Notes: generated from the letters alone by a model not told the origin. 49,734 bases of DNA from an uncultured Smithella sp. (GCA_964394185.1 CAYMWM010000008.1:1-49734), one strand, 5' to 3'. Shown: positions 727-18,618, counted from the stretch's first letter. Program-made: numbers and translations.

Positions 727-3027
727 ATGGACCAAGCTACTCATAATAGAATCGTATCATTTATCTGGGGAATCGCTGATGATGTTTTACGTGATCTTTT
801 TAAACGCGGGAAATATCCGGATGTAATTCTGCCAATGTGCGTCATCCGTCGGATGGATGCAGTTCTCGAACCAACCAAACAGGCGGTGCTCGACACCAAG
901 AAGATGCTTGACGAAGCGCGTATTACCGAGCAACGCTCCGCACTTGCTGATGCCGCCGGTCAGGCATTTTACAACACTTCACGTTTCACTCTGCGCGATT
1001 TGAAATCCCGTGGAAGCCAGCAACAACTTCGGGCTGACTTTGAAGATTATCTCAATGGTTTTTCTCAAAATGTTCAGGATATTCTTGAAAATTTCAAGTT
1101 TCGCAATCAACTATCCACCCTTTCAAAGGCCGACGCTCTAGGTACGCTGATTAACAAGTTTCTCGATCCCGAAATTGATCTGACGCCAAATGGTATCGAC
1201 AACCATGCAATGGGAACAGTCTTTGAGGAGTTAGTTCGTAAATTTAATGAAGACAATAATGAAGAAGCAGGCGAGCACTGGACGCCGCGCGATGCGGTGC
1301 GGCTTATGGCCAACCTTATATTCCTGCCGATTGAGGACAAGCTAAAATCCGGCACATACCTGCTTTATGACTGTGCGTGCGGCACAGGTGGCATGCTTAC
1401 AGTGGCGGAGGAAACGCTCAAAGAGATTGCAAAGAAACGCAGTCTTCAGATTGACAGCCGCCTATTTGGGCAGGAAATAAATCCGGAAACTTACGCTATC
1501 TGCAAGGCGGATATGTTGCTTAAGGGTGAAGGTGAAAACGCTGACCGAATTATTGGCGGTGCGGAATGGTCAACTCTATCTAACGATGCCTTCCCCGCTT
1601 ATGAGTTCGACTTTATGCTTTCCAATCCGCCTTATGGAAAAAGCTGGAAGAAAGATCTTGAAACCATGGGCGGTAAGGACGGCATACGCGATCCGCGCTT
1701 CAAAGTTATGCACGACGGCGACGAACTTTCGCTTATCACCCGGTCAAGTGACGGCCAGATGCTCTTTCTTGCCAACATGGTTTCCAAGATGAACGATAAA
1801 TCAAAGCTGGGCAGTCGCATCGCAGAGGTAAATAACGGCTCATCACTATTCACGGGTGACGCGGGACAGGGAGAGAGCAACATCCGCCGCTGGCTTATAG
1901 AAAACGATTGGCTTGAAGCCATTGTCGCGTTGCCTTTAAACTTATTTTATAATACCGGCATTGCCACCTACATTTGGGTGTTATCAAATAGGAAGCCAGA
2001 ACATAGAAAGGGCAAAGTTCAACTTATTGATGCAACTCAATGGTTCAAACCATTGCGCAAGAACCTCGGTAAGAAAAACTGCGAGCTTTCGCCGGAAGAT
2101 ATCGAACGTATCAGCAACACATTTCTTAATTTCAAAGAAACACCGGAGTCGAAAATATTCCCCAATGACGCATTCGGTTACTGGAAAGTAACCGTAGAAC
2201 GTCCACTGCGTCTGCATAGTCAACTTACACTTAAGGCTATTGAAACACTGCGTTTTGCTTCGGGTGATGAATCTATCAGGGCTGATTTGTATGATGAGTT
2301 TGGAGAAGATCTTTTCACCGATTTCGCAAAAGTATATGAGAAACTGGAGAAGCGTCTTGCGGAATGGGGCAAAGATGAAGAAGATAGTGAAGAAAACGGT
2401 GACAAACCGAAAGGTTTGCCCGATAAAAAGAAGAAGAAATTGCTGGATCAGAAGACTTGGGAACGCGATGGACGTCTTTTAGAAATTGCTATAAAACTTC
2501 GCGAGATGCTTGGCGACAAGCTGTATGAAGATCATAATGAGTTTCGTAAACGTGTTGACAATACTCTTAAAGGTGAAAATATCAAAGTATCAGCAACCGA
2601 TCTGAATCTGATTTTTAAAGCGATACGCTGGCGTGTAGAAACAGCGCCGCAAGTAATCGATAAAGTGCATAAACCGGGCAAGGTTAAGGCTAATCCGTTG
2701 TATGGTTTATACGAAGCGAGTGTTGAAAATAAGACGGTAATCGTTGAATACGAATCCGACACAGAATTACGTGATACCGAACAGGTGCCGCTTCTTGAAG
2801 ATGGCGGCATAGAAGCTTTTATCAGGCGCGAAGTTCTGCCATACACACCCGATGCATGGATAAAAAAAGATGCTACAAAGATCGGTTACGAAATCAGCTT
2901 TACCCGCCACTTTTATAAGCCGCAGCCATTGCGTACACTTGAAGAAATACGCAAAGACATTCTTGCAATTGAAAAAGAGGCCGAAGGCCTCTTAGATGAA
3001 ATTATTGGTGTTGCCGGAGGTAAGTGA
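727..3027 (+). CDS. hsdM: Type I restriction-modification N6-adenine DNA methyltransferase subunit M (long form, 766 aa)
   Basis: AdoMet motif I (YDCACGTGGML) and motif IV (LSNPPYGKSW). Heads an operon with S and R subunits. Lys/Glu-rich low-complexity stretch near residue 550. Confidence 0.93.
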   Translation: MDQATHNRIVSFIWGIADDVLRDLFKRGKYPDVILPMCVIRRMDAVLEPTKQAVLDTKKMLDEARITEQRSALADAAGQAFYNTSRFTLRDLKSRGSQQQLRADFEDYLNGFSQNVQDILENFKFRNQLSTLSKADALGTLINKFLDPEIDLTPNGIDNHAMGTVFEELVRKFNEDNNEEAGEHWTPRDAVRLMANLIFLPIEDKLKSGTYLLYDCACGTGGMLTVAEETLKEIAKKRSLQIDSRLFGQEINPETYAICKADMLLKGEGENADRIIGGAEWSTLSNDAFPAYEFDFMLSNPPYGKSWKKDLETMGGKDGIRDPRFKVMHDGDELSLITRSSDGQMLFLANMVSKMNDKSKLGSRIAEVNNGSSLFTGDAGQGESNIRRWLIENDWLEAIVALPLNLFYNTGIATYIWVLSNRKPEHRKGKVQLIDATQWFKPLRKNLGKKNCELSPEDIERISNTFLNFKETPESKIFPNDAFGYWKVTVERPLRLHSQLTLKAIETLRFASGDESIRADLYDEFGEDLFTDFAKVYEKLEKRLAEWGKDEEDSEENGDKPKGLPDKKKKKLLDQKTWERDGRLLEIAIKLREMLGDKLYEDHNEFRKRVDNTLKGENIKVSATDLNLIFKAIRWRVETAPQVIDKVHKPGKVKANPLYGLYEASVENKTVIVEYESDTELRDTEQVPLLEDGGIEAFIRREVLPYTPDAWIKKDATKIGYEISFTRHFYKPQPLRTLEEIRKDILAIEKEAEGLLDEIIGVAGGK

Positions 3028-4079
3028 TGAAAGAACAAACTAAAGTTTATCTGGTCAGGGGTGGTAGCGACGGTCAGGACGAAGACTATGTGCTTGATAA
3101 CAATATCGCTATCATAGGTTTTAAAGAATTTCCTTCATTAGAAAAAGCAAAGACCTATGAAGACATATTCAAGATCATTACTACCGCGAAGCCTGATCTT
3201 AAAACGAGAGCAGCGGGCAACTATGCCGGTCAATTATGGGCATTCGCTATTGCAATGAAAGAAGATGATATAGTTGTCCTGCCACGCAAACTTACGTCAC
3301 AGGTAGCGCTTGGCAAAGTAGTCGGTTCATATAAGTATCTTAAGGTGGGCAATGAGCTTCGTCATACAAGAAAAGTGCAATGGATTCGTCCAGACGTTGC
3401 CAGATCTGTTTTTAATCAAGACCTTCTTTCTTCATTCGGGGCTTTCATGACGGTTTGCAGCATTTCGCGAAATGATGCTGCGAATAGAATTGCGGCAGTC
3501 ATCGAAGGCAAACCTGATCCTGGGCTTGTCGGCGATGTTGTGCAGACGAACAAGACGGCTGAGGTAATGACCACTGATGAAGCCGCTATAACCGATCTGG
3601 CGCAAGCAGCACATGACCAAATTGTGGAACAAATTCAAAGCCGATTTAAAGGACACGAGCTTGCACGATTGGTGGATGCAATCTTGAAAGCTGAAGGTTG
3701 GGTAACAAAACTTTCACCGCCCGGACCTGATGGGGGCGTGGACATTCTTGCCGGGCGCGGATTTCTTGGTCTTGATCAGCCACGTCTTTGCGTGCAGGTT
3801 AAGTCCCAAACCAGTGCGGCCGATGTCAGCGTGTATCGCACGCTGCAAGGTTCAATGCAAAGCTTCAAAGCCGAACAGGGGCTTATTGTTTGTTGGGGTG
3901 GTTTTAATAAACCGGTTCTTTCAGAAGCAAAACAAGGATACTTTACAGTACGTCTTTGGGAAAGTCGTGATCTTGTTGAGGCTATCTACCGCAATTATGA
4001 AAATCTGCCTGCTGAAATTAAGGCTGACTTGCCACTAAAGAAGGTATGGATGCTTGTGCCAGAGGATACTGAAGAATGA
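3027..4079 (+). CDS. Mrr-like (Mrr_cat) restriction endonuclease with an unrecognised N-terminal domain
   Basis: C-terminal PD-(D/E)xK-like signature GPDGGVDILAG...LCVQVKSQ, typical of the Mrr catalytic domain. The ATG at 3027 overlaps the hsdM TGA (TGATG), with GGAGG 6 nt upstream. Its stop overlaps the hsdS start (ATGA). Confidence 0.8.
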   Translation: MKEQTKVYLVRGGSDGQDEDYVLDNNIAIIGFKEFPSLEKAKTYEDIFKIITTAKPDLKTRAAGNYAGQLWAFAIAMKEDDIVVLPRKLTSQVALGKVVGSYKYLKVGNELRHTRKVQWIRPDVARSVFNQDLLSSFGAFMTVCSISRNDAANRIAAVIEGKPDPGLVGDVVQTNKTAEVMTTDEAAITDLAQAAHDQIVEQIQSRFKGHELARLVDAILKAEGWVTKLSPPGPDGGVDILAGRGFLGLDQPRLCVQVKSQTSAADVSVYRTLQGSMQSFKAEQGLIVCWGGFNKPVLSEAKQGYFTVRLWESRDLVEAIYRNYENLPAEIKADLPLKKVWMLVPEDTEE

Positions 4080-5464
4080 TCGCTGATCTCAAGCCATATA
4101 AAGAATATCAGGAATCGGGGCTACCGTGGCTTGGGAAGATACCTGGGCATTGGTCTATCCGCCGTGTAAAGTTTCTACTGAATGAAGTCGATTCACGCTC
4201 GACAACGGGGAAAGAACAGCTACTGCGCGTGTCGCAATTTACGGGAGTTACCCAGCGCAAATCTATAAATGGGTCTGATGAACCTGACAGCAGGGCTGCC
4301 ACACTTGTCGGTTACAAAAGAGTCGGCATCAACGATATGGTCATAAACATTATGCTGGCATGGAATGGTAGCCTTGGAGTTTCTCGATTCGAGGGCATTT
4401 CTAGTCCAGCCTATTGCGTTTACCGTTTCAATAAAGATGCACTACCGTGGTACTATCACGAACTCCTGCGCTTACCAGCATACAAGGTACGCATAAAAAT
4501 CGCTTCGACAGGTGTCGTTGAAAGTCGCTTGCGTCTTTATTCAGACGACCTTGGTCGCATTGAAGCTATTCTACCGCCACCCGGAGAGCAGACGGCAATT
4601 GTACGGTTTTTGAATTGGACTAATGGACGGTTGGGGCGAGCAATTCGGGCTAAGCGAAGCGTAATTGAGTTGCTCAATGAACAAAAGCAGGCCATTATTC
4701 ATCGTGCCGTTACGCGTGGCCTTGATCCTTCCGTATCGCTTAAAGCATCCGGCATTCCTTGGCTTGGTGATATTCCGCAGCACTGGGAAGTCCGACGTGT
4801 TAAACAGATAGCACGAATTCTTCGTGGGAAATTCTCCCATCGACCGCGCAATGACCAGTCGCTTTACGATGGTAAGTATCCATTTATCCAAACTGGTGTA
4901 GTTGCTAAGTCTGGCAAGTTTATTAAGAGTTACAGTCAGACTCTTAACGAAAAAGGGTACGCCGTCAGTAAACTGTTCCCAAAGGAAACTCTAGTGATGA
5001 CGATTGCGGCGAATATCGGAGAAGTATCTATCCTTAAATTTGATGCTTGTTTTCCCGATTCCATAGTTGGGTTTGTTCCATCAGCAAATGCTGATCGTGA
5101 TTTCCTTTATTATCTCTTTTTTTGCATGAAGCCTGTATTTTTAATTGAAGCACCAGTGAATACACAGGGTAACTTGAATGTTGAACGAATAGGTGCAATG
5201 GGAATACCTTTACCGCCCAAAGAAGAACAAAAAATAATTTCAGAGTATGTTGAGACGAAGACTGTATCATTTGATTTCGCAATTACTAAACTCGAAAAAG
5301 AAATCAAGTTATTGCACGAATACCGGATGCGCCTTATTGCAGATGTGGTTACGGGCAAGCTGGATGTGCGCGAAGTGGCCGCTACGTTACCTGAAGAAGA
5401 AACTCTGGAAGAAATTGCAGCAAGTGATGAAGCCGAAATTTCCGATGAGGAGATTGCCGTATGA
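4076..5464 (+). CDS. hsdS: Type I R-M specificity subunit S with two target-recognition domains
   Basis: Internal duplication: IPWLGKIPGHWSIRRVK near the N-terminus and IPWLGDIPQHWEVRRVK mid-protein. Two conserved coiled-coil spacer regions (LPPPGEQTAIVRFL..., LPPKEEQKIISEYV...). ATGA overlaps at both ends. Confidence 0.9.
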   Translation: MIADLKPYKEYQESGLPWLGKIPGHWSIRRVKFLLNEVDSRSTTGKEQLLRVSQFTGVTQRKSINGSDEPDSRAATLVGYKRVGINDMVINIMLAWNGSLGVSRFEGISSPAYCVYRFNKDALPWYYHELLRLPAYKVRIKIASTGVVESRLRLYSDDLGRIEAILPPPGEQTAIVRFLNWTNGRLGRAIRAKRSVIELLNEQKQAIIHRAVTRGLDPSVSLKASGIPWLGDIPQHWEVRRVKQIARILRGKFSHRPRNDQSLYDGKYPFIQTGVVAKSGKFIKSYSQTLNEKGYAVSKLFPKETLVMTIAANIGEVSILKFDACFPDSIVGFVPSANADRDFLYYLFFCMKPVFLIEAPVNTQGNLNVERIGAMGIPLPPKEEQKIISEYVETKTVSFDFAITKLEKEIKLLHEYRMRLIADVVTGKLDVREVAATLPEEETLEEIAASDEAEISDEEIAV

Positions 5465-8400
5465 CAACTGATGTAAGTGAAAAGGGACTTGAAACCATTA
5501 TCATGCGTTTCATGACCGGCACTGATGGGTTGGATATTGCAGCCGGTGGTGTGGCCGAGACATCTGTTGAAATAGCTTACCGAAGAGCAAGTGGTTCAGG
5601 TTACATTGCCGGATTTGCCCAGGATTATGACCGAGCTCACGCCATTGACGTGACGCAGCTTTTTGCTTTCCTGCATAGCACGCAGCCCGAAGTATTTGAA
5701 AAACTTGGCCCTATAAGTTATCTTGACTCGAAAAACATGAATCGCCTTAAGTTGCTTACCCGAATCTCTTCGGAGATCGGCAAACGTGGCGTCATTGATG
5801 TTTTGCGTAAAGGAATCGAACATCATCCCATCGGACACATTGATCTTTTCTATGGCACACCATCGGAAGGCAACGCTAAAGCGGCAGAACTCAATGCCCA
5901 GAATCGTTTTTCCATAACACGTCAGCTTGCCTACAGTATAGACGAAACGCGCCGTGCGCTGGACCTGAGTTTGTTTATTAATGGCCTGCCGATTGCCACT
6001 TTCGAGTTAAAGAATAGCCTTACCAAACAGACAGTGGAAGACGCGATAGAACAGTATCGCCGCGACCGCAATCCGCGCGAAAAGCTTTTTGAATTTGGCC
6101 GTTGCATCGTTCACTTTGCCATTGACGATAGCGAAGTACGTATGTGCACCGAGCTCAAGGGGAAGGCATCGTGGTTTCTGCCCTTCAATAAAGGATTTAA
6201 TGATGGCGCCGGTAATCCGCCAAATCCTGATGGCCTAAAGACTGACTATCTTTGGAAAGAGCTACTTACACCGGCGGGATTAACCAATATCCTGGAAAAT
6301 TACGCCCAGATTGTCGAAGTCAAAAACAAGAAGACTGGCAAGAAAAAACGCAGCCAGGTATTTCCCCGTTATCATCAACTTGATGTGGTGCGTAAAGCAT
6401 TGGCCGACGTGAAGGATCATGGAGTAGGAAAACGATACCTTATTCAACATTCGGCGGGTAGTGGAAAGTCGAATTCCATCGCGTGGCTTGCACATCAACT
6501 CATCGGAGTAAAACACGAGGGTAAGGAAATTTTCGATTCGGTCATTGTAATCACTGACCGGCGGATTCTGGATGATCAGATTCAGAATACCATAAAACAA
6601 TTCATGCAGGTTAAAGCGACAGTGGGCCACGCCGAAAATGCAGGCGATTTGCGCAAGTTCATCGAGCAAGGAAAGAAGATCATAATCTCGACTATACAGA
6701 AGTTCCCCTTCATTCTTGATGAGCTTTCAATCGAAAGTGGCAAAACGTTTGCTATAGTCATTGACGAGGCGCACTCGAGCCAGGGTGGAAAAACTTCAGC
6801 CGCCATGAGCAAGGCGCTGGGTGCGGGGAAAGGCGGCACGGAGGTGGAAACAGACCCTGAAGATACGATAAACGAGGCTTTGGAAAAACGCATGAAGGCA
6901 CGCAAAATGCTTAAAAACGCCAGCTATTTTGCTTTCACTGCCACTCCCAAGAACAAAACGCTGGAAATGTTCGGTGATGAATTGCCACCCGATGACGAAG
7001 GCAAGGTTAAACACCGGCCTTTCCATATTTATACGATGAAGCAGGCAATAGAGGAGCGCTTCATTCTTGACGTGCTCAAGAGTTATACACCCGTCAACAG
7101 CTACTACAAGCTGGTAAAGAAAATCGAAGGCGACCCGGAATACGATACAAAAAAGGCGCGGAAAAAATTGCGGCACTACGTGGAAAGCCACGATCATGCA
7201 ATCCGCCTCAAGGCTGAAATAATGGTGGATCATTTCCACGAGCAGGTGCTTGCGGCAGGAAAGATCGGCGGGCAAGCAAGGGCGATGGTAGTGACTAGCG
7301 GCATTGAACGGGCAATTCAATACTACCATGCTATAAAAACTTATCTCCTGGAGCGCAAAAGTCCCTATCAGGCAATTGTTGCTTTTTCAGGCGAGCATGA
7401 ATACGGTGGTGTAAAGGTCACTGAAGCCTCACTCAATGAATTTTCAAGTAGCGACATTGCCGAGAAGATTCAGACTGATCCTTATCGTTTTCTTATCTGT
7501 GCCGACAAGTTTCAGACAGGCTATGATGAGCCGCTTCTGCATACGATGTATGTGGATAAGCCTCTGGAAGGCATTAAGGCAGTGCAGACACTTTCCAGAC
7601 TTAATCGCGCGCATCCGCAAAAACATGATTGCTTCGTTCTTGATTTTCAGAACAACAGCGAAACAATCTCATACGCTTTTCAGGATTATTATCGCACAAC
7701 GTTACTTGCCGAAGAAACCGATCCTAATAAGTTAAACGATCTGAGGACAACACTTGGCGGTGCACAGGTTTATTCGCCGCAACAGATTGATGAAATAGTC
7801 GAATTGTTTCTTGGTGGTGCTGAGCGTGATAAGCTTGATCCAATCCTCGATGTTTGTGTGGCCGTTTACAAGGAATCACTGGATGAAGATCAGCAGGTGG
7901 ATTTCAAAGGTAAAGCCAAAGCTTTCTGCCGAACCTATGATTTCCTGGCTTCAGTGATACCATACACTAACCGCGATTGGGAAAAACTTTCGATCATGCT
8001 CAATCTGCTGACACCCAAACTGCCCGCACCGAAAGAGGATGACCTCGCCAAGGGTATCCTTGAAGCAATTGACATGGACAGCTATCGTGTGGAGAAGAAG
8101 GCGGTAATGAAGATTGCGCTGGCTGATAAGGATGCGGAAATTGGACCAGTGCCTACGGAGGCAGAAGGCCGCAAAAAAGAGTCTGAGCTTGATTATTTGA
8201 GCAATATAATCAAGACATTTAATGATCAATTTGGCACGCTTTTTACTGATGCGGATCGTGTCGTAAAACGGATTCGGGAAGATATTGCTCCCAAAGTCGC
8301 CGCTGATACGGCATATCAAAATGCTAAAGAAAATACACCACATACCGCGCGCATGGCCCATGACCAAGCGCTCGGCAAAGTGATGCAGCTCTTACTCAAG

Positions 8401-8490
8401 GATGATACACACGTATACAAACAGTTCGTCGAAAATGAATCTTTCCGGCGCTTCGTCGGCGATATGGTTTACACGCTGACGAATCCTTGA
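5461..8490 (+). CDS. hsdR: Type I restriction enzyme R subunit (nuclease plus SF2 helicase/translocase)
   Basis: N-terminal nuclease motif (DLSLFINGLPIATFELK). Helicase motif I (HSAGSGKS), motif II (VIDEAHSSQ), motif III (FTATP), motif VI (QTLSRLNR). 1009 aa. Confidence 0.95.
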   Translation: MTTDVSEKGLETIIMRFMTGTDGLDIAAGGVAETSVEIAYRRASGSGYIAGFAQDYDRAHAIDVTQLFAFLHSTQPEVFEKLGPISYLDSKNMNRLKLLTRISSEIGKRGVIDVLRKGIEHHPIGHIDLFYGTPSEGNAKAAELNAQNRFSITRQLAYSIDETRRALDLSLFINGLPIATFELKNSLTKQTVEDAIEQYRRDRNPREKLFEFGRCIVHFAIDDSEVRMCTELKGKASWFLPFNKGFNDGAGNPPNPDGLKTDYLWKELLTPAGLTNILENYAQIVEVKNKKTGKKKRSQVFPRYHQLDVVRKALADVKDHGVGKRYLIQHSAGSGKSNSIAWLAHQLIGVKHEGKEIFDSVIVITDRRILDDQIQNTIKQFMQVKATVGHAENAGDLRKFIEQGKKIIISTIQKFPFILDELSIESGKTFAIVIDEAHSSQGGKTSAAMSKALGAGKGGTEVETDPEDTINEALEKRMKARKMLKNASYFAFTATPKNKTLEMFGDELPPDDEGKVKHRPFHIYTMKQAIEERFILDVLKSYTPVNSYYKLVKKIEGDPEYDTKKARKKLRHYVESHDHAIRLKAEIMVDHFHEQVLAAGKIGGQARAMVVTSGIERAIQYYHAIKTYLLERKSPYQAIVAFSGEHEYGGVKVTEASLNEFSSSDIAEKIQTDPYRFLICADKFQTGYDEPLLHTMYVDKPLEGIKAVQTLSRLNRAHPQKHDCFVLDFQNNSETISYAFQDYYRTTLLAEETDPNKLNDLRTTLGGAQVYSPQQIDEIVELFLGGAERDKLDPILDVCVAVYKESLDEDQQVDFKGKAKAFCRTYDFLASVIPYTNRDWEKLSIMLNLLTPKLPAPKEDDLAKGILEAIDMDSYRVEKKAVMKIALADKDAEIGPVPTEAEGRKKESELDYLSNIIKTFNDQFGTLFTDADRVVKRIREDIAPKVAADTAYQNAKENTPHTARMAHDQALGKVMQLLLKDDTHVYKQFVENESFRRFVGDMVYTLTNP

Positions 8491-10390: not shown

Positions 10391-10657
10391 ATGCTAAATG
10401 ACGAAATCCTTTTACTTCAACTGGAAGAACTGGCTGAACGACTCGGAATACTGGTCCGCGATGAGAATATAAACATTGACGATGTATCCAGCAGCGGTGG
10501 CCTGTGTCTTGTTGAAGGTCAATATATTCTGATTCTTAATTCTAAAACTACTGTACAGGAAAAGATTCAGATCGCAATAACGGCACTAAGACAATTCGAC
10601 CTGAGTAACGTTTATGTAAAACCGGCAATCCGGGAGTTGTTGGAAGGACAAGAATAA
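10391..10657 (+). CDS. hypothetical 88-aa protein
   Basis: Protein-like sequence (amphipathic helix LLLQLEELAERLGILV, then strand-like GGLCLVEGQYILIL). No SD is visible before the ATG. Confidence 0.45.
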   Translation: MLNDEILLLQLEELAERLGILVRDENINIDDVSSSGGLCLVEGQYILILNSKTTVQEKIQIAITALRQFDLSNVYVKPAIRELLEGQE

Positions 10658-10704: not shown

Positions 10705-10980
10705 TTATTCATCATATGATTTTCTAGTCATTTTTCTGTAAATCATCTGGGCTTTTTCCCATGATCTGGGAAATTTCACAAAACAATTACCTTTGTCATC
10801 AATTTTAATCGAACTAATCTGTCGAGATGCATGTTCTGGAAGTAATTTTATGTTTGAAATTTTAAACCAAGCACCTTGTTGCTTAATTATTCCCGTTTTC
10901 TCTAATTTGTTAAAATCAATAGGAGTTGCTAGTTGCTTCGCTAGTGTAATGATTTCTCGTCTATTTGGGATTTTATCCAT
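10705..10980 (-). CDS. hypothetical 91-aa protein, fifth gene of the Qat-like operon
   Basis: AGGAG SD 9 nt before the ATG. Starts 41 nt downstream of the TatD-like gene on the same strand. No family recognised. Confidence 0.6.
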   Translation of the reverse strand: MDKIPNRREIITLAKQLATPIDFNKLEKTGIIKQQGAWFKISNIKLLPEHASRQISSIKIDDKGNCFVKFPRSWEKAQMIYRKMTRKSYDE

Positions 10981-11021: not shown

Positions 11022-11738
11022 TTACTCTTTAGAAACTGTACGACATTTTTCAAAATTCGCAGAGATAATATGTTCCGTTACATATTTGTCAGTTTGCCAT
11101 ATTTTACTTAATTCATCATATACATACTGAATCATCTTTAATGGTTGATTCGTTAGAAAAGGTCCATCAGATTCAACAAGTATATGATCCCTATGAACAG
11201 CTTCTATCAAATTTCTGTGCTTACTTCGTAAGATATTGACATTGACTGAAAAGTAATGCCCTTTCACTGCTAATGCACCCGCAGTTTGCGGCCCTCCAAT
11301 GAAATAATGAAAACACACCGGCCCAATATGATAATCATCGAGCAATTGAGCTAATTCCTCATGCGCATTTCTACTATGAACAGTTACGAATTTATTATTT
11401 TTAAGAAATGGTAATATAGTTTTTAAAGTATCTAGTTGTTTCAATTTTGTTTTCTTGCCCTCAAAGGAGAAGTCTAGGCCAATCTCACCTATATAAGCTG
11501 TATCATTTACATAATTAATAAATTTTTTTATTTCTTCTTTATCTTCATGAACTCTTAGAGGATGCAGTCCTATGGCAGGCATTACACATTTGTATGGCTT
11601 CAAGTATGGTAAAGCCATCTGATAATGGCTAGGCATCATCGTTGTCATAACACAGCTCGTTTTTGCATTATGGTAAATCGATGCTGTCGCAATTGGGTTA
11701 TTAAACAGATCAATATGACAGTGAGTATCTATAAGCAT
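11022..11738 (-). CDS. qatD: TatD-family metal-dependent hydrolase/DNase (QatD-like)
   Basis: TatD motifs: IDTHCHIDL at the N-terminus, GEIGLDF, VHSR, FHYF, VESDGP. Immediately downstream of the QueC-like gene. Confidence 0.85.
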   Translation of the reverse strand: MLIDTHCHIDLFNNPIATASIYHNAKTSCVMTTMMPSHYQMALPYLKPYKCVMPAIGLHPLRVHEDKEEIKKFINYVNDTAYIGEIGLDFSFEGKKTKLKQLDTLKTILPFLKNNKFVTVHSRNAHEELAQLLDDYHIGPVCFHYFIGGPQTAGALAVKGHYFSVNVNILRSKHRNLIEAVHRDHILVESDGPFLTNQPLKMIQYVYDELSKIWQTDKYVTEHIISANFEKCRTVSKE

Positions 11739-11745
11739 GTAAGAC

Positions 11746-13086
11746 CTATAAAATTCCCATGCTCTGTGCCCAATTCTTCACTTCATCACGCAGCCTAACA
11801 ATCAAAGATACATATTGTCTTTTTTGCAATACATTTAAAGGTGCATTTGATCGAAGTGTTCGCCAGATTGTATTGTCATCATCATTTCTTTCTATAAAAT
11901 CTACAACAGATGAAAGATCGTGATTAGGTTGCGATAAAATCTTCCTTAGAACAGTCTCAGAAGTTACATCGTAACCATACCGCTCCGCTGGGAAACCACA
12001 ATTTTGAATAGCTGCTTGTCGGAAGATACAAGGGACGCATACCCCACACTGGCAAGCATGTCGATCCGCCCAGTGCTTTCTTCCAAACCCACGCTTTCCA
12101 CAAGATATAGAATGGGGATAGGAAGCTTGGAGAAGATTGGCATTTCTACATTCTTGCATCATCTCCCCTTTTGTTTTCATTACGTATGGATTATTAAGTG
12201 GATAATGTAGTCCGAGGTTATTTAAGAGGGTGTCTAACATTGTGATGAAGTAGGGATGCACTGTTCTTGTGCTTAAGGAGCCTCTACGCGCTGGAGTTAA
12301 AGGATAGTTTAGTGCGATAGCACCATTTTCAGGAATAATAATGTGTGTACCCTCACCGAGAAAACTTGCTGCCAAGACAGCATTTCCTATAAAGGCCAAA
12401 GATCTGCTTCTAAAATTAATGTCTTTTTCCTTATCTTGACTATCTGCACATAAACCTGTACGTGCCAAATAACGTTGAATACGGTTATTATAACTCCTCA
12501 ACAGGAATGGCATCAGATTTTGCTGATCAGTTTTGGAATTCTCCGCTTGCGGGTCGTAACTTGATGCTAAAACTATGCTGGAAGAAGGATTGTCCTCGAG
12601 CCAATCGATAATACCCACCAAGGAGTCTAAACCACCTGAAAAAAGTGATACAGCATCGCCGCGAATACGTTTTACATCGATAAATCCATTCCTTTCTGTT
12701 CTGAATGCCTGACCAAATAGAGGTATCGCCGACGTTACGAAATTAAAATGCCAAATATCGCCGGTTAGAAATTCAAGCATTGACTCGATTAAATCTGAAA
12801 CATGAGACCATTTATTAGGATCGACAACAGGAATCTGTACAGCAAATTCTCTGGTCCAGCGGTCGCCAACGTAATTTTCCCGATTAACTGCTCTATCGCA
12901 ACCATATACAACGGATGCGAAATATGCAAATTCTGCTGCCGCGTAATCGAACGATCCGCGAATACGTGCGTATTCTTCGATGCTAAATATTGATTGCAGT
13001 CGCCTAATTCCATTTATGTCGAGATAAATAGCGGAACCAGACTTGTAAGGATTACCCTTTTGTAGTTGAACTGTAATTGTATTCAT
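11746..13086 (-). CDS. qatC: QueC-like PP-loop ATPase (QatC-like)
   Basis: PP-loop SGGLDS (LFSGGLDSLVGI). C-terminal Cys cluster (CGKRG...CQCGVCVPCIFR) as in QueC zinc sites. Long N-terminal extension relative to housekeeping QueC. ATGA overlap with the upstream gene. Confidence 0.85.
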   Translation of the reverse strand: MNTITVQLQKGNPYKSGSAIYLDINGIRRLQSIFSIEEYARIRGSFDYAAAEFAYFASVVYGCDRAVNRENYVGDRWTREFAVQIPVVDPNKWSHVSDLIESMLEFLTGDIWHFNFVTSAIPLFGQAFRTERNGFIDVKRIRGDAVSLFSGGLDSLVGIIDWLEDNPSSSIVLASSYDPQAENSKTDQQNLMPFLLRSYNNRIQRYLARTGLCADSQDKEKDINFRSRSLAFIGNAVLAASFLGEGTHIIIPENGAIALNYPLTPARRGSLSTRTVHPYFITMLDTLLNNLGLHYPLNNPYVMKTKGEMMQECRNANLLQASYPHSISCGKRGFGRKHWADRHACQCGVCVPCIFRQAAIQNCGFPAERYGYDVTSETVLRKILSQPNHDLSSVVDFIERNDDDNTIWRTLRSNAPLNVLQKRQYVSLIVRLRDEVKNWAQSMGIL

Positions 13087-13865
13087 GGAATCAAAATATC
13101 CAAAACTTCTCGGTTAATTTCATCTGCCATGCGTAAACCATCTTTACTGTTCCAGTTAATTTTTGTTAAATCTTTCTCTCTGGAAAGTTCTTCTCTGACA
13201 ATCGCTCGTATGATTTCGCGTGCTCGTTGAAAGAAAGCATATGTTTGTTCAGGTGGGATTTTTTCCTGTATTACGCTAAATTGCTTCTGCTCAAAATTAG
13301 CCGCTAATATATTCGCATAGTAGATTTGAAGCACTTCCTCAATGTTTATATTACCACTCGTTAGAAGTGTGTCAAATTCATCAACTGTTTGAACTTCTTC
13401 TGCAAGTTCATCGATAGTTTCAGCCATTGCTCGATTAATCGCCTCATCATCAAGCAATCCGCCCGCTTCAGAGAGGCGTTCTACAACACCATCGAGAAAT
13501 TCTTCAAGCGATTTCTCTCGCAGATCAGACAGATCGAATACCCGAAGTGCATCATCTAGCCCTGATTTACCAACCGTGCTAATAAAATACGCTAAATTTG
13601 CACCACTATTTGCAGCACGCAACCTAGCAGCACCGCCACTGCCACCACCTCTAGGTAATTTTTGTCTTCCTGCAGTACCACCACCGACACCTTGACGGGT
13701 GCCTTGAAGGTTTGTATCTGACGAAAGGTATTTTTTATAAGCATCAGTAAAGACATTAACAGCGTTTTTGACTTTATTTGTAGATAAGTACCCGGAAGCT
13801 GCGTTTCCCACAGCATTATTTACACCTGGCCATTTTGGACTACCATATACTTTAGAAGTTCCCAT
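13083..13865 (-). CDS. qatB: QatB-position protein, function unknown
   Basis: Assigned by position only, between the KAP NTPase and the QueC-like gene. Gly/Arg-rich segment (GVGGGTAGRQKLPRGGGSGGAARLRA) followed by an acidic helical C-terminal half. The start overlaps the qatA stop (TAATG). Confidence 0.55.
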   Translation of the reverse strand: MGTSKVYGSPKWPGVNNAVGNAASGYLSTNKVKNAVNVFTDAYKKYLSSDTNLQGTRQGVGGGTAGRQKLPRGGGSGGAARLRAANSGANLAYFISTVGKSGLDDALRVFDLSDLREKSLEEFLDGVVERLSEAGGLLDDEAINRAMAETIDELAEEVQTVDEFDTLLTSGNINIEEVLQIYYANILAANFEQKQFSVIQEKIPPEQTYAFFQRAREIIRAIVREELSREKDLTKINWNSKDGLRMADEINREVLDILIP

Positions 13866-15727
13866 TATTTTTTACTCTTTGTTTTGCTCGATATCGCACG
13901 ACCAACTTTAGAATCTGTTTTGCTTAATTTATTTCTAACCTCTCCAACTAATACTGATGCTTGATTTGATGTATCGACGTTAAATGCGCGTAATGTAATG
14001 CCGAAACCGGGACTGAGATTGGAAGCACCTATACGTTCCACACATCGAGAAAATGATTCTGCACTATTCATATGTCCATTCGCTGCCAGATCAATTAGAG
14101 AACGTAATGCCGTGTCATCTTTTACATCTTGCATTGCGTGTCTTGCAACAATACCAAGGACACCTTCTTGCTCATCTTCTAGGAGTGATGCGAACATTTT
14201 AATGCCGTTACGCCTTTGAGTGTCTATTTTTAAAAGCAGTTCTTCTGCACATGTTCTCATCGCTTGCGTCATGAGTCGCAGACCCGCAAGAGTGTCTGTA
14301 ACAGAGCTTCTCGCAACCCAGAAATAGTCGCGAAGATCTTCTTTCGCTATTTGGGGTTGTGCCTTCAACCATCGCCAGAATCGTGGTGTCTTCCAATTTT
14401 TATATTTCTCTGGTATTTCCTCAATGTTCTTAACATTTTCTAGTTCGATTAATGGTTGAGCAGTACCATCCCCCGATGCACGATGCCATTGATACAATTC
14501 ATCAAAGCGGTCACTACTCATATATTCAAGTACCATTAATTTGATCAAAATATGATCCTTTAATGTAGTGATCTTTGCAACATCCGCCAAAGTTTTTCTT
14601 AACCAAAGAGCATTCAAAAATCTTTTAATTTGTCGCGGATTACCTTTTAAGCCATCAGTTATTGCATCTGAACAAGTTTCTACTAATCGAAGGCTATTAG
14701 AGACGACTGTTTTTAGACGATCATCTTTGATAGAATTTATTTCTTCGCCAAGTTGGAAAGACTTATAGCGTTCTCTCTCGAGAAACTGACTATATTTCTG
14801 AAGTACTTCCAGAAATTTTGGTTCCGGCAAATACTTCTTGAGAAATAGCATACACAGATATGAACGCACTTCATGAGGAGCTAATTTGGGTAATGTATAT
14901 GGTACTTGGATTAGTTTTTCTAAATAATCAGTAACTAGGGAATCACCAATTGTTGCACCTTTCTCTCCCGTAAATAATTCAGCATATTTGATACGGATAG
15001 CATTTTCAACAATTCGACGATCAGTCGCAATGATAAATGCGGTATGATCAACACTTAAAAATAGTTTGATTGCTTCAAGATTCTCTATCAATCTTTCTGG
15101 TGAGCACCTATCTAAATCATCAATTAATATTATGAGAGCCTTTAATTTTGTTTTGTTTATTAACTCTTGAAAATCAGAACGAAAAGATCGAATGTTTTCA
15201 ACAGATTCTTGCGATTTTTTTAATAAATCATCAAACTTTAAAGAAGGCGTCTCTTGTGTTTCTGCTGTTTCTTTACCCTGTTTTATAATCTGATCTGTTG
15301 GCAGCGTACCGTCTGCAAGTAGTAGAGGCAATGGATTTGATGTCAGATAGGATATGCCTGCGCCAATACCATACTTGACAAGTTTCATCCAATTCACTCT
15401 TCTTAATAATTCCTTTGCTTTGTCACCTACGATGCTCTTAAGTTTTTGATGTTCGCTGAGTTCATTAAGAAGAGTTGTAAGTATTGCACTTTTTGCATCA
15501 TCATAGCCTTCAAAAACCCAACTATTGAAGTAAACAACAGCAATATCTTCATCCCGAACTAATTGTTGTTGAAGTATCTTGAGAATACTTGATTTGCCGC
15601 CACCCCAATCACCAAAAAGACCAATTGTAACAGGCAGCATGTTAGGGTCTTTAACAATGGATAGTAACAAATGTGCGTGAATGGTAAACCCTAGAAGATC
15701 TTGATCAGTTTCATTATCTGCCCACAT
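13865..15727 (-). CDS. qatA: KAP-family P-loop NTPase (QatA-like)
   Basis: Walker A in KAP context (GLFGDWGGGKSS). Walker B (LIILIDDLDRC). 620 aa. First gene of the operon. Confidence 0.85.
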   Translation of the reverse strand: MWADNETDQDLLGFTIHAHLLLSIVKDPNMLPVTIGLFGDWGGGKSSILKILQQQLVRDEDIAVVYFNSWVFEGYDDAKSAILTTLLNELSEHQKLKSIVGDKAKELLRRVNWMKLVKYGIGAGISYLTSNPLPLLLADGTLPTDQIIKQGKETAETQETPSLKFDDLLKKSQESVENIRSFRSDFQELINKTKLKALIILIDDLDRCSPERLIENLEAIKLFLSVDHTAFIIATDRRIVENAIRIKYAELFTGEKGATIGDSLVTDYLEKLIQVPYTLPKLAPHEVRSYLCMLFLKKYLPEPKFLEVLQKYSQFLERERYKSFQLGEEINSIKDDRLKTVVSNSLRLVETCSDAITDGLKGNPRQIKRFLNALWLRKTLADVAKITTLKDHILIKLMVLEYMSSDRFDELYQWHRASGDGTAQPLIELENVKNIEEIPEKYKNWKTPRFWRWLKAQPQIAKEDLRDYFWVARSSVTDTLAGLRLMTQAMRTCAEELLLKIDTQRRNGIKMFASLLEDEQEGVLGIVARHAMQDVKDDTALRSLIDLAANGHMNSAESFSRCVERIGASNLSPGFGITLRAFNVDTSNQASVLVGEVRNKLSKTDSKVGRAISSKTKSKK

Positions 15728-16071: not shown

Positions 16072-16314
16072 ATGGGAACAAAAGGTATTGCTGCAATTGC
16101 AGGAGCCGTAGTACTTGTAGCGGCGTTTCCGACGACGAGCTTACTGATGAAAATTGGTTGCGGAATTGTCGGCGCAGCATCGGGTGCCGTCATCGGAGAA
16201 ACGTTCGAAACTGAAATTGTAAATGTAAAAAAACAAATTGAGGAACTTCGAACTTTCCGTGAATGGATGGCTACTCAAAGAGCAACAATGCAAGCAGCGG
16301 CAGCCAAAGCCTGA
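16072..16314 (+). CDS. small Gly/Ala-rich membrane protein with a helical C-terminal tail
   Basis: Extended SD ACCCTAAGGAGG before the ATG. Hydrophobic N-terminal 45 aa followed by a charged helix. Strong terminator follows. Confidence 0.6.
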   Translation: MGTKGIAAIAGAVVLVAAFPTTSLLMKIGCGIVGAASGAVIGETFETEIVNVKKQIEELRTFREWMATQRATMQAAAAKA

Positions 16315-16730: not shown

Positions 16731-17088
16731 ACTGACGATAGTAATGACGATAACAATTTTTTAAATTCGATCTTTGACAATTTGAAGCGTCGGTCATCTG
16801 GTGGGAGACTGCTGGGCGGATGGGCAGAGTGAGTGGCCGTAAAAACACTACCACGAGATGATTAAAAAGGGCTCTTTTTAAAGGAGCATGAAATAGCAAA
16901 AACCAGAGGTAAGGAGTGTAGTGGTACAGGAAACTTTCCTACTATTAACAACTCCAACAATCTGCTGGTAATGTAAACTTTTAACCATGGAACTGGCATA
17001 ATATAAAAAAGGCTTCTTTCATGTGAAAATTCTTATACAAAATTAATGCAAGTTTTTGATGCAGTTCCTGTTTCATAAGGAAAACAGG

Positions 17089-17304
17089 ATGTCAAAAGAA
17101 AAAAAAGAAATTGCACCAAGATTATTAGGTATTGACCAAACGGCGGTTTATCTGGGAATTGCTGCTAAGACGATTCGGAATCGCATTGGATTGAAAGCGA
17201 AAAATCCTTTCCCTGTAAAACCAAAACGTATTGGTGGAAGAGTTCTATTCGATAAAAAAGAGCTAGACCTGTTTATCGATTCTCTGACTGCCGACAATAA
17301 TTAA
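17089..17304 (+). CDS. AlpA/excisionase-type HTH DNA-binding protein
   Basis: LLGIDQTAVYLGIAAKTIRNRI ... RIGGRVLFDKKELDLFI resembles MerR/AlpA-type excisionases. Directly precedes the integrase. Start set at the ATG with AAGGA 8 nt upstream. Confidence 0.7.
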   Translation: MSKEKKEIAPRLLGIDQTAVYLGIAAKTIRNRIGLKAKNPFPVKPKRIGGRVLFDKKELDLFIDSLTADNN

Positions 17305-17327: not shown

Positions 17328-18488
17328 ATGTCGATTTTGGCGGAATGCCCTGTTTGTCATTTTAAGCAGAACGCAAGTAATCGCTTATGCACCTGTGGCG
17401 AAGATCTTGTCAAAGCTAAAAGATCAAACAGGGTCAGATTTTGGATTAGTTATCGGCTTCCTGGCGGGAAACAAAAACGAGAGTCTGTGGGTTTTTCCAT
17501 TAAGGAAGCCCAGGATGCGGAAGGTAAGCGCCGGAGCCAGAAACGTGAAAACAGAATATTTGACGTTAAACCTGAAGCAAATATGACATTTAATGAATTG
17601 ACAAAATGGTATCTGAGTCTGGAGGGTGTGAAAGCGCTGGCAAGATACTATATTCTTAAAATTAATTTAAAGTCATTTAATGAAGAGTTTGGGAATCGAA
17701 TCGTCAATACTTTGAAAAAAGTTGACCTTGAAAATTATAAGGCAAAGCGAAAAAAAGAGGGACAATCTGATTCATACATTTATCAACAGGTGTCCATGGC
17801 GAGGACAATGATCAATAAAGCATTTGATAATGACATGGTCGGCGGAGATACAATAAAAGTTTTTAGGAAGTTAAAAAAATTACTTAAAATTAAAGAAAAC
17901 GCACGTGACAGGGTTCTTTCTTCTGACGAGTTTCATGGTCTGATGGCGGCACTTCCCCCTCATACGAAGGCAATCGTTGCAACTGGATATTATACAGGTA
18001 TGAGAAAAAGCGAGGTATTAAAATTGACTTGGGATAAAGTTAACCTGAAAGATAGGGTTATTAAACTTGATGCCGCCGATACAAAAGACAGAGAGAAGCG
18101 AACTATTCCAATTTGTAATGCATTGTTCGAAATAATTTCGAGAATTCCCAGGAATCTTCATGATAACCATGTTTTTCTCTATAATGGGAAACCAGTTAAA
18201 GATATAAGGAAAGCTCTATCTAGAGCTTGTCGAGATGCTGGTATTCCTTATGGTAGAGAAACAAAAGATGGATTTGTCTTCCACGATTCGCGACACTGTT
18301 TTAACACTAATATGCGAAAAGCCGGAGTATCCGAGTCGGTAATAATGAAAATTACCGGTCACTCAACGCGGGAAATGTTTATACGATATGATACCGTTGA
18401 TACTTCAGACAAACGTAATGCTGTTGAACAAATGGAAGGTTTTTTGAAAAGTGTTGACCAAAACGTTGACCAAGTGTCCAAAAAATGA
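17328..18488 (+). CDS. tyrosine recombinase / phage-type integrase
   Basis: Catalytic residues in context: TGMRKSE (Arg), HDSRHCF (His-x-x-Arg), GHSTREMFIRYD (His...Tyr). N-terminal Cys4 ribbon (CPVCHF...CTCGEDL). AGGAGG SD. Confidence 0.92.
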   Translation: MSILAECPVCHFKQNASNRLCTCGEDLVKAKRSNRVRFWISYRLPGGKQKRESVGFSIKEAQDAEGKRRSQKRENRIFDVKPEANMTFNELTKWYLSLEGVKALARYYILKINLKSFNEEFGNRIVNTLKKVDLENYKAKRKKEGQSDSYIYQQVSMARTMINKAFDNDMVGGDTIKVFRKLKKLLKIKENARDRVLSSDEFHGLMAALPPHTKAIVATGYYTGMRKSEVLKLTWDKVNLKDRVIKLDAADTKDREKRTIPICNALFEIISRIPRNLHDNHVFLYNGKPVKDIRKALSRACRDAGIPYGRETKDGFVFHDSRHCFNTNMRKAGVSESVIMKITGHSTREMFIRYDTVDTSDKRNAVEQMEGFLKSVDQNVDQVSKK

Positions 18489-18532
18489 AAAAGGAGCTAA
18501 CTGATGAATCAGCTAACCCCTTGTATTCGTTA

Positions 18533-18618
18533 TGGTGCCGAAGCCGAGACTTGAACTCGGACGGCTTGTGGCCACTACCCCCTCAAGATAGCGTGTCTAC
18601 CAGTTCCACCACTTCGGC
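18533..18618 (-). tRNA. tRNA-Leu (anticodon GAG), CCA encoded
   Basis: Hand-folded cloverleaf. Acceptor GCCGAAG/CTTCGGC, D stem GTG/CAC, anticodon stem CTATC/GGTAG with loop TTGAGGG, long variable arm, T stem CCGAG/CTCGG with TTCAAGT loop, 3' ACCA. Confidence 0.93.

What the first reader, a model, noticed from the sequence alone, without database searches (positions are those of the whole stretch)
727..18618. Integrase-bearing defence island inserted beside secG and tRNA-Leu(GAG)
The tyrosine integrase (17328-18488) ends 44 nt from the 3' end of tRNA-Leu(GAG). This is the classic geometry of tRNA-targeted islands. secG-tRNA-Leu(GAG) is itself a conserved core pair, as in E. coli secG-leuU.

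To the left lie an excisionase-like gene and three unrelated defence modules: Type I R-M with an Mrr-like nuclease, XRE-ImmA/PIN, and Qat-like. Small orphan ORFs are interspersed and the composition is mosaic. No structural phage or conjugation genes were seen, so this looks like a defence-cargo island rather than a prophage.

The distal att repeat was not found inside the window, so the left boundary is undefined.
Basis: partly seen in the sequence, partly recalled or inferred. Interest (0 to 1): 0.65.

Follow-up and report, generated by a model that had tools for sequence, protein, structure and literature searches.

The report
Mobile defence island in tRNA-Leu gene
This is an ordinary but well-preserved mobile genomic island, inserted by its own integrase into the tRNA-Leu(GAG) gene next to secG of an uncultured Smithella-like bacterium; it carries three anti-phage modules and is missing from an otherwise identical strain in sister bioreactor samples.

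Summary
tRNA-Leu(GAG) lies at 18533-18618(-), secG at 18705-19079(-). An intact tyrosine integrase (17328-18488) with an excisionase-like gene ends 44 nt from the tRNA 3' end. The cargo is a four-gene type I R-M operon with an embedded Mrr-like nuclease, an XRE-M78/PIN pair (RosmerTA-like) and a complete QatABCD.

New evidence:
- In a sister run of the same study, 20 kb of the right flank is 100% identical, but nothing of window 60-18531 is present. Different DNA joins the tRNA exactly at 18532.
- In the source run, the assembly graph has two entries and two exits around 18532-18588. That is a 57-bp att identity block running from the anticodon stem/loop to the tRNA 3' end.
- The distal island end is not in the window, so the island is longer than 18.5 kb. 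The source contig is only 949 nt longer than the window.
- Integrase relatives (72-75% identity) sit in the same xis-int-tRNA-Leu(GAG)-secG geometry in other Syntrophales-type MAGs and metagenome contigs, with different cargo (a TrwC relaxase, an AAA_25 protein).
- The 44-nt spacer is a terminator hairpin, probably supplied by the element.

Verdict: a new member of a known kind, of modest interest.

The parts
36..311 (+). p91: small membrane protein (signal peptide plus TM helices). Its copy is absent from the island-free strain, so it lies inside the variable segment. It belongs to a multi-copy family.
   Evidence: One X1 contig covers 82-856 at depth 6, linking it to hsdM. X2 has no copy at 97% identity or better. 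There are 429 relatives in metagenome contigs, in many different contexts.
392..427 (+). Terminator hairpin of p91. The repeated p91 unit ends at about 432.
   Evidence: Read directly from the sequence. Alignments to paralogous loci end at 427-436.
727..3027 (+). hsdM, type I R-M methyltransferase
   Evidence: Pfam N6_Mtase 5e-53 and HsdM_N 2e-22.
3024..4079 (+). Mrr-like nuclease embedded in the R-M operon (PADLOC candidate PDC-S02)
   Evidence: Pfam Mrr_cat 1.2e-19. PADLOC PDC-S02 2.7e-133 over the full length.
4076..5464 (+). hsdS, specificity subunit
   Evidence: Pfam Methylase_S 7e-23.
5461..8490 (+). hsdR, restriction/translocase subunit
   Evidence: Pfam HSDR_N, SWI2_SNF2, ResIII and T1R_D3. 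NCBIfam hsdR 4e-64.
8740..9834 (+). XRE-HTH + M78 (ImmA/IrrE) peptidase protein, an RmrA-like antitoxin/repressor
   Evidence: Pfam HTH_3 and Peptidase_M78. PADLOC RmrA 1e-57. NCBIfam spr1629-family antitoxin 2e-39, below its cut-off.
9815..10300 (+). PIN + DUF3368 protein, presumed toxin partner. It overlaps the previous gene by 20 nt.
   Evidence: Pfam PIN 6e-6 and DUF3368 1e-5. PADLOC PDC-S70 1e-6.
10391..10657 (+). o88: orphan ORF, also a multi-copy family that often sits next to p91 copies elsewhere
   Evidence: tblastn hits of 66-84% identity beside p91 in a dozen loci, mostly 82%. No Pfam, PADLOC or PHROG hit.
10705..10980 (-). Orphan ORF, 91 aa
   Evidence: No family hit.
11022..11738 (-). 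qatD (TatD-like)
   Evidence: Pfam TatD_DNase 4e-40. PADLOC QatD 3e-39.
11746..13086 (-). qatC (QueC-like)
   Evidence: PADLOC QatC 8e-89. NCBIfam QatC 321.8 bits, above the cut-off of 280.
13083..13865 (-). qatB
   Evidence: PADLOC QatB 7e-14.
13865..15727 (-). qatA (KAP-family P-loop NTPase)
   Evidence: Pfam KAP_NTPase 1e-46. PADLOC QatA 2.5e-103. NCBIfam QatA 2e-119, below its cut-off.
16072..16314 (+). Orphan small membrane-like ORF with a terminator-like hairpin at 16322-16351. Its RBS region resembles that of p91.
   Evidence: Repeat family D17. Terminator scan.
17056..17304 (+). Excisionase-like HTH_17 gene. The probable true start is the ATG at 17089.
   Evidence: Pfam HTH_17 8e-6, at 26.4 bits just under the cut-off of 27. 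PHROG 66 'excisionase and transcriptional regulator' 1e-7. Relatives of 59-67% identity lie beside the integrase relatives in L092-L097; only this gene and int are shared. L101 and L102 carry an HTH_17 gene in the same place.
17328..18488 (+). Tyrosine integrase, apparently intact
   Evidence: Pfam Phage_integrase 7e-24. PHROG 1 integrase 2e-61. The alignment to PDB 4a8e keeps the R (GMRKSE), HxxR (HDSRH), H (GHS) and Y residues. The search found 1400 relatives at E<=1e-30.
18491..18522 (-). 14-bp hairpin plus U-run: the terminator of the regenerated tRNA, probably supplied by the element
   Evidence: RNA fold -21 kcal/mol, z = -5.8. Terminator scan. The same hairpin follows every integrase relative. 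The island-free allele of the same strain has different sequence here.
18532..18588 (.). attL identity block, 57 bp: tRNA nt 31-86 (last two pairs of the anticodon stem, the loop, and on to the 3' end) plus 1 nt
   Evidence: In X1 two left arms (int/hairpin at depth 7.57, other flank at 6.1) and two right arms (tRNA 5' half at 7.61, an unknown arm CTGGATGAGGGCG...) meet this segment. X2 has only one of each.
18533..18618 (-). tRNA-Leu(GAG), the integration target, regenerated
   Evidence: ARAGORN.
18705..19079 (-). secG, a core flank (not part of the island)
   Evidence: Pfam SecG 1.6e-22. It is 100% identical in the island-free run.

Best explanation
Window positions from before 1 up to 18531 are the right-hand part (at least 18.5 kb) of an integrative element. 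The element inserted by site-specific recombination into the tRNA-Leu(GAG) gene downstream of secG in a Smithella-like (Syntrophales) bacterium.

**How it works**
- The element encodes a lambda-style module, xis then int then att, transcribed towards the att site.
- The integrase recombines an element site (attP) with the tRNA gene (attB) within a 57-bp identity block. The block runs from the anticodon stem/loop to the 3' end of the tRNA.
- After insertion the tRNA gene is regenerated at the int-proximal junction (attL, 18532-18588). Its 3' part and a new terminator hairpin (18491-18522) probably come from the element.
- The displaced original 3' fragment, with the native downstream DNA, lies at the far junction (attR), outside the window.

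**Cargo in the visible part**
- A translationally coupled hsdM-mrr-hsdS-hsdR type I R-M operon.
- An RmrA-like XRE/M78 antitoxin with a PIN/DUF3368 toxin.
- QatABCD.
- A few orphan genes.

**Status of each step**
- Shown: gene content; the right boundary at 18532; absence of the segment from a near-clonal strain; the two-in/two-out graph around the 57-bp block; a conserved target site for the integrase family.
- Inferred: that Int/Xis (and not RecA) made the polymorphism; that the crossover lies in the anticodon loop; that the modules defend against phage in this host.
For: **Geometry and intact catalytic residues**.

**Presence/absence in one strain**
- X1 holds the island at depth about 5-8 and the core at about 6-8.
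- X2 holds the core 18600-38599 with 0 differences, including one 25.7-kb contig at depth 17.6. It has no contig of 97% identity or better on 60-390 or 451-900, and only short, diverged pieces on the rest of the island.
- In X2 an 1809-nt contig (depth 16.7) carries ...TGATAAACCAGTTATCCCCTGTTTCTCTGA joined to 18532-18599.

**att duplication in X1**
- A 121-nt int-side contig ends at 18561 (depth 7.57).
- A 1471-nt contig with the same 30-nt flank as X2 ends at 18561 (depth 6.1).
- A 196-nt contig covers 18532-18588 and then leaves into CTGGATGAGGGCGATACAGG... (depth 9.6).
- The core contig starts at 18589 (depth 7.61).
- That exit arm is absent from X2 and from the window.

**Family behaviour**
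- P0003, P0013, P0016 and P0049 (72-75% identity) all lie int-tRNA-Leu(GAG)-secG, with an HTH_17 gene just upstream where one was called. Their cargo is unrelated.
- In L096 the tRNA 3' acceptor strand carries an A-to-G change. It mismatches the 5' strand and is absent from L093-95, which share the same host flank. This is as expected if the 3' part is element-derived.
- An integrase pseudogene lies in the same geometry beside a tRNA-Leu(CAG) that shares the 3' 30 nt.

**General mechanism** as described for tRNA-gene islands: PMC4383910.
Against: - attR and the distal island end were not seen as sequence. Only 30 nt of each arm is visible, from contig loose ends.
- A k=31 graph cannot by itself tell attL + attR from attP + attB. 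The integrated state rests on the window's own assembly and on the equal depth of island and core.
- No attR was found within 10 kb upstream of the integrase in four relatives, so no complete family member has been delimited.
- The hairpin downstream of the tRNA also resembles that of integrase-free relatives L003 and L009. Its element origin is therefore likely but not proven.
- No defence function has been tested.
Confidence: 0.85

Rival explanations
1. The island is a fixed, no longer mobile remnant. The island-free strain arose by RecA-dependent deletion between the two 57-bp direct repeats, or by homologous replacement of the whole locus, not by Int/Xis excision or a fresh integration.
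For: Deletion between 57-bp direct repeats gives exactly the same product as excision, so cannot tell the two apart. The island interior was found in only one indexed run, so there is no sign of spread.
Against: int and xis are intact and conserved. The integrase family sits at the same site in several taxa with different cargo, which implies repeated site-specific integration. There are 0 SNPs in 20 kb between carrier and non-carrier, so the event is very recent.
Confidence: 0.15
2. In the source sample the element is an excised circle or plasmid-like episome (attP) beside an empty attB. On this reading the window's int-tRNA-secG join is an assembly artefact across the 57-bp repeat.
For: The k=31 contig graph (two arms in, two arms out) is equally compatible with attP + attB.
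Against: The depth of the island equals the depth of the chromosome. Assemblers that work from reads longer than 57 nt resolve such a repeat, and the window joins int to tRNA to secG. Every relative from independent assemblies shows the same integrated join.
Confidence: 0.05
3. The visible 18.5 kb is only the defence-cargo end of a larger prophage, phage satellite, ICE or mobilisable element. Its structural, replication or transfer genes lie in the unassembled left part. Alternatively it is a composite of two or more elements accreted at the same tRNA.
For: The distal end is outside the window. Relatives carry a TrwC relaxase (L096/L097) or an AAA_25 protein (L098) near xis-int. Composition is mosaic: GC 0.459 for the R-M block against 0.37-0.40 for the rest. 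Host-typical multi-copy genes (p91, o88) sit inside the island.
Against: No phage, relaxase or T4SS domain occurs in 18.5 kb. No internal att-like repeat marks a tandem junction.
Confidence: 0.35

Closest known systems
tRNA-gene genomic islands as defined in Islander (Hudson, Lau & Williams; PMC4383910)
   Same: A tyrosine integrase lies next to a regenerated tRNA gene. The element restores the 3' part of the gene. A displaced 3' fragment marks the other end. The island is absent from close relatives.
   Different: Only the int-proximal junction is in the window. The displaced fragment is inferred from the contig graph of the source run. The host is an uncultured Smithella-like syntroph.
Lambda-type xis-int-attP modules, and phage HP1 integrase (PDB 1aih), which also uses a tRNA-Leu gene (the HP1 target is from my own knowledge, not tested here)
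   Same: The order xis, int, att is transcribed towards att. The catalytic domain is a tyrosine recombinase, and HP1 integrase is a weak sequence match (E = 4e-5). The identity block starts at the anticodon stem/loop.
   Different: No phage genes are visible. The N-terminal part of the integrase has a CxxC...CxC motif and no Pfam arm-binding domain hit. The best PDB match is an archaeal XerA-like protein.
Defence islands carried on integrative elements at tRNA hotspots, such as P4-like satellites at leuX in E. coli (from my own knowledge)
   Same: Several unrelated defence systems are clustered as cargo next to an integrase at a tRNA-Leu gene.
   Different: None of the P4-type genes was found, and the integrase lineage and host phylum differ. 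The relatives of this integrase carry relaxase or AAA_25 modules instead.
QatABCD (PADLOC and NCBIfam models)
   Same: All four genes are present in the canonical order, with strong model hits.
   Different: QatA scores below NCBIfam's equivalog cut-off (400 against 600 bits). The QatB match is weak (7e-14).
RosmerTA (RmrT/RmrA) toxin-antitoxin defence systems (PMC10440598)
   Same: An HTH + ImmA/M78-peptidase antitoxin is paired with a variable toxin. There is a strong RmrA model hit.
   Different: The partner is a PIN/DUF3368 protein that matches no RmrT model (only PDC-S70, 1e-6). Toxicity and defence are untested.

Membership tests
tRNA-integrated genomic island (Islander definition) | Tyrosine integrase gene inside the island | tested here: met
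   Pfam and PHROG hits; catalytic R, HxxR, H and Y residues present.
tRNA-integrated genomic island (Islander definition) | An intact tRNA gene at one end, with the island on its 3' side | tested here: met
   tRNA-Leu(GAG) at 18533-18618(-). int ends 44 nt from its 3' end.
tRNA-integrated genomic island (Islander definition) | A displaced tRNA 3' fragment as a direct repeat at the other end | tested here: inconclusive
   It is absent from the window. In the source run, 18532-18588 has two left and two right arms at single-copy depth, as a duplication would give. The attR sequence itself was not recovered.
tRNA-integrated genomic island (Islander definition) | An uninterrupted target site in a close relative | tested here: met
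   X2 has 0 differences in the 20-kb flank, no island, and other DNA joined at 18532.
QatABCD defence system | QatA (KAP NTPase), QatB, QatC (QueC-like) and QatD (TatD-like) in one operon | tested here: met
   PADLOC 2.5e-103, 7e-14, 8e-89 and 3e-39. Gaps between genes run from -4 to 7 nt. QatC is above the NCBIfam cut-off.
Type I restriction-modification | HsdM, HsdS and HsdR subunits | tested here: met
   Pfam and NCBIfam hits. The operon has 4-nt overlaps.
RosmerTA | RmrA: HTH + M78/ImmA peptidase antitoxin | tested here: met
   PADLOC RmrA 1e-57. Pfam HTH_3 + Peptidase_M78.
RosmerTA | An adjacent RmrT toxin | tested here: inconclusive
   The neighbour is a PIN/DUF3368 protein with no RmrT model hit. 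RmrT toxins are diverse (PMC10440598).
Prophage or phage satellite | Capsid, tail, terminase, or satellite-specific genes | tested here: not met
   Nothing was found by Pfam or PHROGs in 1-18531. The unseen left part could not be tested.
ICE / integrative mobilisable element | Relaxase and/or T4SS genes, oriT | tested here: not met
   None in the visible 18.5 kb. Relatives L096/L097 have a TrwC relaxase. The unseen part could not be tested.

The most novel reading that the evidence does not exclude
The xis-int module belongs to a Syntrophales-wide family of elements that all use the secG-adjacent tRNA-Leu(GAG) as a docking site and swap cargo (relaxase, AAA_25 or defence modules). The copy in the window is currently active, having entered or left an otherwise clonal Smithella population between samples of one bioreactor study. 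That would make it a rare, directly observable case of defence-island mobility in an uncultured syntroph.
Probability: 0.4. Interest if true: 0.45.

Novelty: new member of a known kind. Interest (0 to 1): 0.3.

Why it matters
The finding gives a delimited att site (57 bp, from the anticodon stem/loop to the 3' end of tRNA-Leu(GAG)). It also gives an integrase family with a fixed target in Smithella and related syntrophs, which are key uncultured members of anaerobic digesters.

It shows that a Qat + RosmerTA-like + type I R-M package differs between near-clonal populations in the same reactor study. This is useful for studies of phage-host dynamics in digesters and for island-finding in MAGs.

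It does not reveal a new kind of system.

Tried and rejected
**Synteny for the left boundary (rejected).**
- Smithella MAG L003/L054 and contig L016 have tRNA-Leu, FAD oxidase, a 283-aa gene, then a homologue of window 36-311. This suggested a left junction at about window 447.
- I rejected this. The 91-aa gene is a multi-copy family with 429 relatives in many contexts. The window's copy is absent from the island-free strain. The distal arm sequence is not in the window.

**Extending the window leftwards (failed).**
- Exact look-ups of window proteins found only two short Logan contigs.
- The integrase's own contig is 50,683 nt, against a window of 49,734 nt.

**Recovering the native flank of the island-free strain (failed).**
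- I searched for FAD-oxidase homologues and their clusters. No protein could be tied to the 1809-nt contig.
- An FAD-oxidase-like contig in X1, X2 and X4 has a roughly matching depth, but it could not be linked to the tRNA.

**attR in relatives (not found).**
- None lies within 10 kb of int in L092, L096, L098 or L099.

**Scans of IMG/VR (no hits).**
- The tRNA 3' 28-mer and the distal-arm 30-mer both gave 0 hits.

**Spread of the island (no evidence).**
- The island interior is found only in the source run.
Full report
**1. Observation**

ARAGORN finds a single tRNA in the window, tRNA-Leu(GAG), at 18533-18618 on the minus strand. Pfam confirms these genes:
- SecG at 18705-19079(-).
- A Phage_integrase catalytic domain at 17328-18488(+).
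- An HTH_17 (excisionase-type) protein at 17056-17304(+).

The integrase stop codon is 44 nt from the tRNA 3' end. The order xis, int, att, read towards the att site, is that of lambda-type modules.

The alignment to the XerA-like structure 4a8e keeps the catalytic R (GMRKSE), HxxR (HDSRH), H (GHS) and Y. HP1 integrase is a weak match. PHROG 1 (integrase, 2e-61) and PHROG 66 (excisionase, 1e-7) agree.

The excisionase-like ORF probably starts at the ATG at 17089. That gives 71 aa, like its 67-72-aa relatives.

**2. Cargo**

- **Type I R-M operon.** hsdM (727-3027), an Mrr_cat protein (3024-4079), hsdS (4076-5464) and hsdR (5461-8490) form one operon with 4-nt overlaps. The Mrr_cat protein matches PADLOC candidate PDC-S02 over its full length at 2.7e-133.
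- **Toxin-antitoxin-like pair.** 8740-9834 encodes an XRE-HTH + Peptidase_M78 protein that matches PADLOC RmrA models (1e-57). It overlaps by 20 nt a PIN/DUF3368 protein at 9815-10300. In RosmerTA systems an ImmA-type protease antitoxin is paired with diverse toxins (PMC10440598). This is therefore a RosmerTA-like pair whose toxin matches no RmrT model.
- **QatABCD.** It is complete on the minus strand, 15727 to 11022 (PADLOC 2.5e-103, 7e-14, 8e-89, 3e-39). NCBIfam puts QatC above its cut-off.
- **Small ORFs.** Those at 36-311, 10391-10657, 10705-10980, 16072-16314, 16477-16677 and 16690-16899 have no family hit.
- **What is missing.** No phage structural, relaxase or T4SS domain is present in the 18.5 kb.
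- **Composition.** GC is 0.459 in the R-M block, 0.37-0.40 in the rest of the island and 0.447 in the core flank.

**3. No att repeat in the window**

The tRNA 3' end has no second copy on either strand. I tested the 28-mer with up to 3 mismatches, 11-mers, and 20-, 30- and 45-nt windows at 72-80% identity.

**4. Relatives with an unoccupied site**

A scan of one genome per species with the 3' 23-mer of the tRNA found nine loci, all from MAGs labelled Syntrophales, Syntrophaceae, Syntrophobacterales, Smithella or Deltaproteobacteria.
- L003 (Smithella sp.) and L009 have MBL-hydrolase, secG, tRNA-Leu(GAG), followed directly by an FAD-linked oxidase and no integrase.
- L016 and L054, from metagenomes, show the same arrangement.

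secG-tRNA-Leu(GAG) is therefore a core pair in this clade, and the integrase-bearing segment is an insertion relative to these genomes.

**5. A near-clonal strain without the island**

Run X1 (bioreactor metagenome) holds 91-95% of the sampled words of the window stretches I queried.
- In X1, island contigs have depth 4.7-7.7 and core contigs 6.1-7.6.
- Run X2, from the same study, holds window 18600-38599 with 0 base differences apart from one T-run length. This includes one contig of 25.7 kb at depth 17.6.
- X2 has nothing at 97% identity or better on 60-390 or 451-900. On the rest of the island it has only short, diverged pieces.
- In X2 an 1809-nt contig (depth 16.7) ends with window 18532-18599. 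It is preceded by ...TGATAAACCAGTTATCCCCTGTTTCTCTGA, which is not in the window.
- X4 behaves like X2 at both island ends.

The island is therefore a presence/absence polymorphism in one strain, and its right boundary lies exactly at the tRNA 3' end.

The window's copy of the leftmost gene (36-311) is also missing from X2. In X1 it is physically linked to hsdM by a 775-nt contig. So the variable segment runs off the left end of the window.

**6. The att duplication**

Laid at 100% identity on 18525-18600, X1 shows four arms:
- a 121-nt contig from the integrase side that ends at 18561 (depth 7.57);
- a 1471-nt contig carrying the same 30-nt flank as X2, also ending at 18561 (depth 6.1);
- a 196-nt contig that covers 18532-18588 and then continues for 139 nt as CTGGATGAGGGCGATACAGGGACAAGATGG... 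(depth 9.6);
- the core contig, which starts at 18589 (depth 7.61).

X2 has one left arm and one right arm only. The segment 18532-18588 (57 bp) is thus shared by two junctions in the island-bearing sample. All arms are at about the depth of the chromosome.

In tRNA numbering the block is nt 31-86 plus one nucleotide. It starts with the last two pairs of the 5' strand of the anticodon stem and runs to the 3' end. This is the expected signature of integration into a tRNA gene, in which the island restores the gene and the displaced fragment marks the far end (PMC4383910).

The exit arm is not in the window or in any fetched locus. The distal end is therefore outside the window. The integrase's contig is 50,683 nt against a window of 49,734 nt, so the distal end is almost certainly outside the contig too. 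The assembly probably broke in the multi-copy 5' region of the 91-aa gene.

Caveat: a k=31 graph cannot separate attL + attR from attP + attB. The integrated state rests on the window's own join, on equal depth, and on the identical join in all relatives.

**7. The 44-nt spacer**

On the tRNA strand, 18491-18522 folds into a 14-bp hairpin followed by UUUUUCAUUUUUU (-21 kcal/mol, z = -5.8). It is a terminator for the tRNA.
- The same hairpin, with the same loop GATGAATC, follows the integrase in relatives L092, L096 and L098-L101; L093-L095 carry a close variant.
- The island-free allele of the same strain has different sequence at this place.

So the hairpin is most likely brought in by the element. 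A similar hairpin in the integrase-free L003 and L009 leaves some doubt.

**8. The integrase family**

The homology search gave 1400 proteins at E<=1e-30.
- P0003, P0013, P0016 and P0049 (72-75% identity) are all found as int-tRNA-Leu(GAG)-secG in different Smithella, Deltaproteobacteria and metagenome contigs. An HTH_17 gene lies just upstream where one was called.
- Only xis and int are shared with the window.
- Their cargo includes a TrwC relaxase (L096/L097) or an AAA_25 protein (L098-L101).
- In L096 the 3' acceptor strand of the tRNA has an A-to-G change that mismatches the 5' strand. The change is absent from L093-95, which have the same host flank. This fits an element-derived 3' end.
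- L004 has an integrase pseudogene in the same geometry beside a tRNA-Leu(CAG) that shares the 3' 30 nt.
- No attR lies within 10 kb in four relatives.

**9. Verdict**

This is a tRNA-Leu(GAG)-targeted integrative element carrying defence cargo. It is at least 18.5 kb long, and its distal end is not assembled.

It is a new member of a well-known kind. The noteworthy points are the exact att block and the strain-level gain or loss within one reactor study.

Three things remain open:
- whether the unseen part holds transfer or phage genes;
- whether Int/Xis or RecA produced the polymorphism;
- whether the modules protect this host.

Noticed in passing
window 1-432; loci L010-L089 (p91 match positions as listed): The 91-aa membrane protein gene is a large multi-copy family in Smithella-like contigs (429 relatives, many contexts, often near tRNA genes). 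Its RBS and first codons (window 1-55) reach depth 600-2500x in runs where single-copy DNA is 6-20x. Upstream of the copies in other loci there is a conserved sigma-54-like promoter (TGGCACGGTATTTTCA) and a palindrome (TTCGTTCAAC-CGTTTGAACA). The function is unknown.
   Followed up: partly
window 10391-10657; loci L043, L044, L046-L048, L050, L070: The orphan 88-aa ORF inside the island also has many homologues (66-84% identity, mostly 82%). In other contigs they lie about 270 nt upstream of p91 copies, on the opposite strand. So two host-typical multi-copy small genes sit in the island.
   Followed up: no
L004:1315-1820: An integrase pseudogene lies beside tRNA-Leu(CAG) in another Deltaproteobacteria MAG, in the same geometry. 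Its fragments match residues 257-374 in two frames at 49-57% identity. This looks like a decayed relative of the element at a second tRNA-Leu gene with the same 3' 30 nt.
   Followed up: partly
L096:11205-11290 versus L093:1533-1618: The same host tRNA-Leu(GAG) carries an A-to-G change in the 3' acceptor strand only in the locus with the P0013-type element. The change creates an A:C mismatch in the acceptor stem.
   Followed up: partly
window 37780: The contigs of both X1 and X2 have five extra T here (GTTTTTTTTC against GTTTC in the window), apparently in an intergenic stretch. This may be a homopolymer-length error in the window's assembly.
   Followed up: no
L009:2500-7457: In this relative about 5 kb is inserted between the MBL-hydrolase gene and nth. 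It includes a 346-aa protein whose C-terminus looks like the intramolecular-chaperone domain of phage tail-spike proteins (by eye, not tested).
   Followed up: no
window 17328-17420: The integrase N-terminus has a CxxC...CxC motif (CPVCHFKQNASNRLCTC), which suggests a small zinc ribbon. No Pfam domain covers the N-terminal 190 residues.
   Followed up: no
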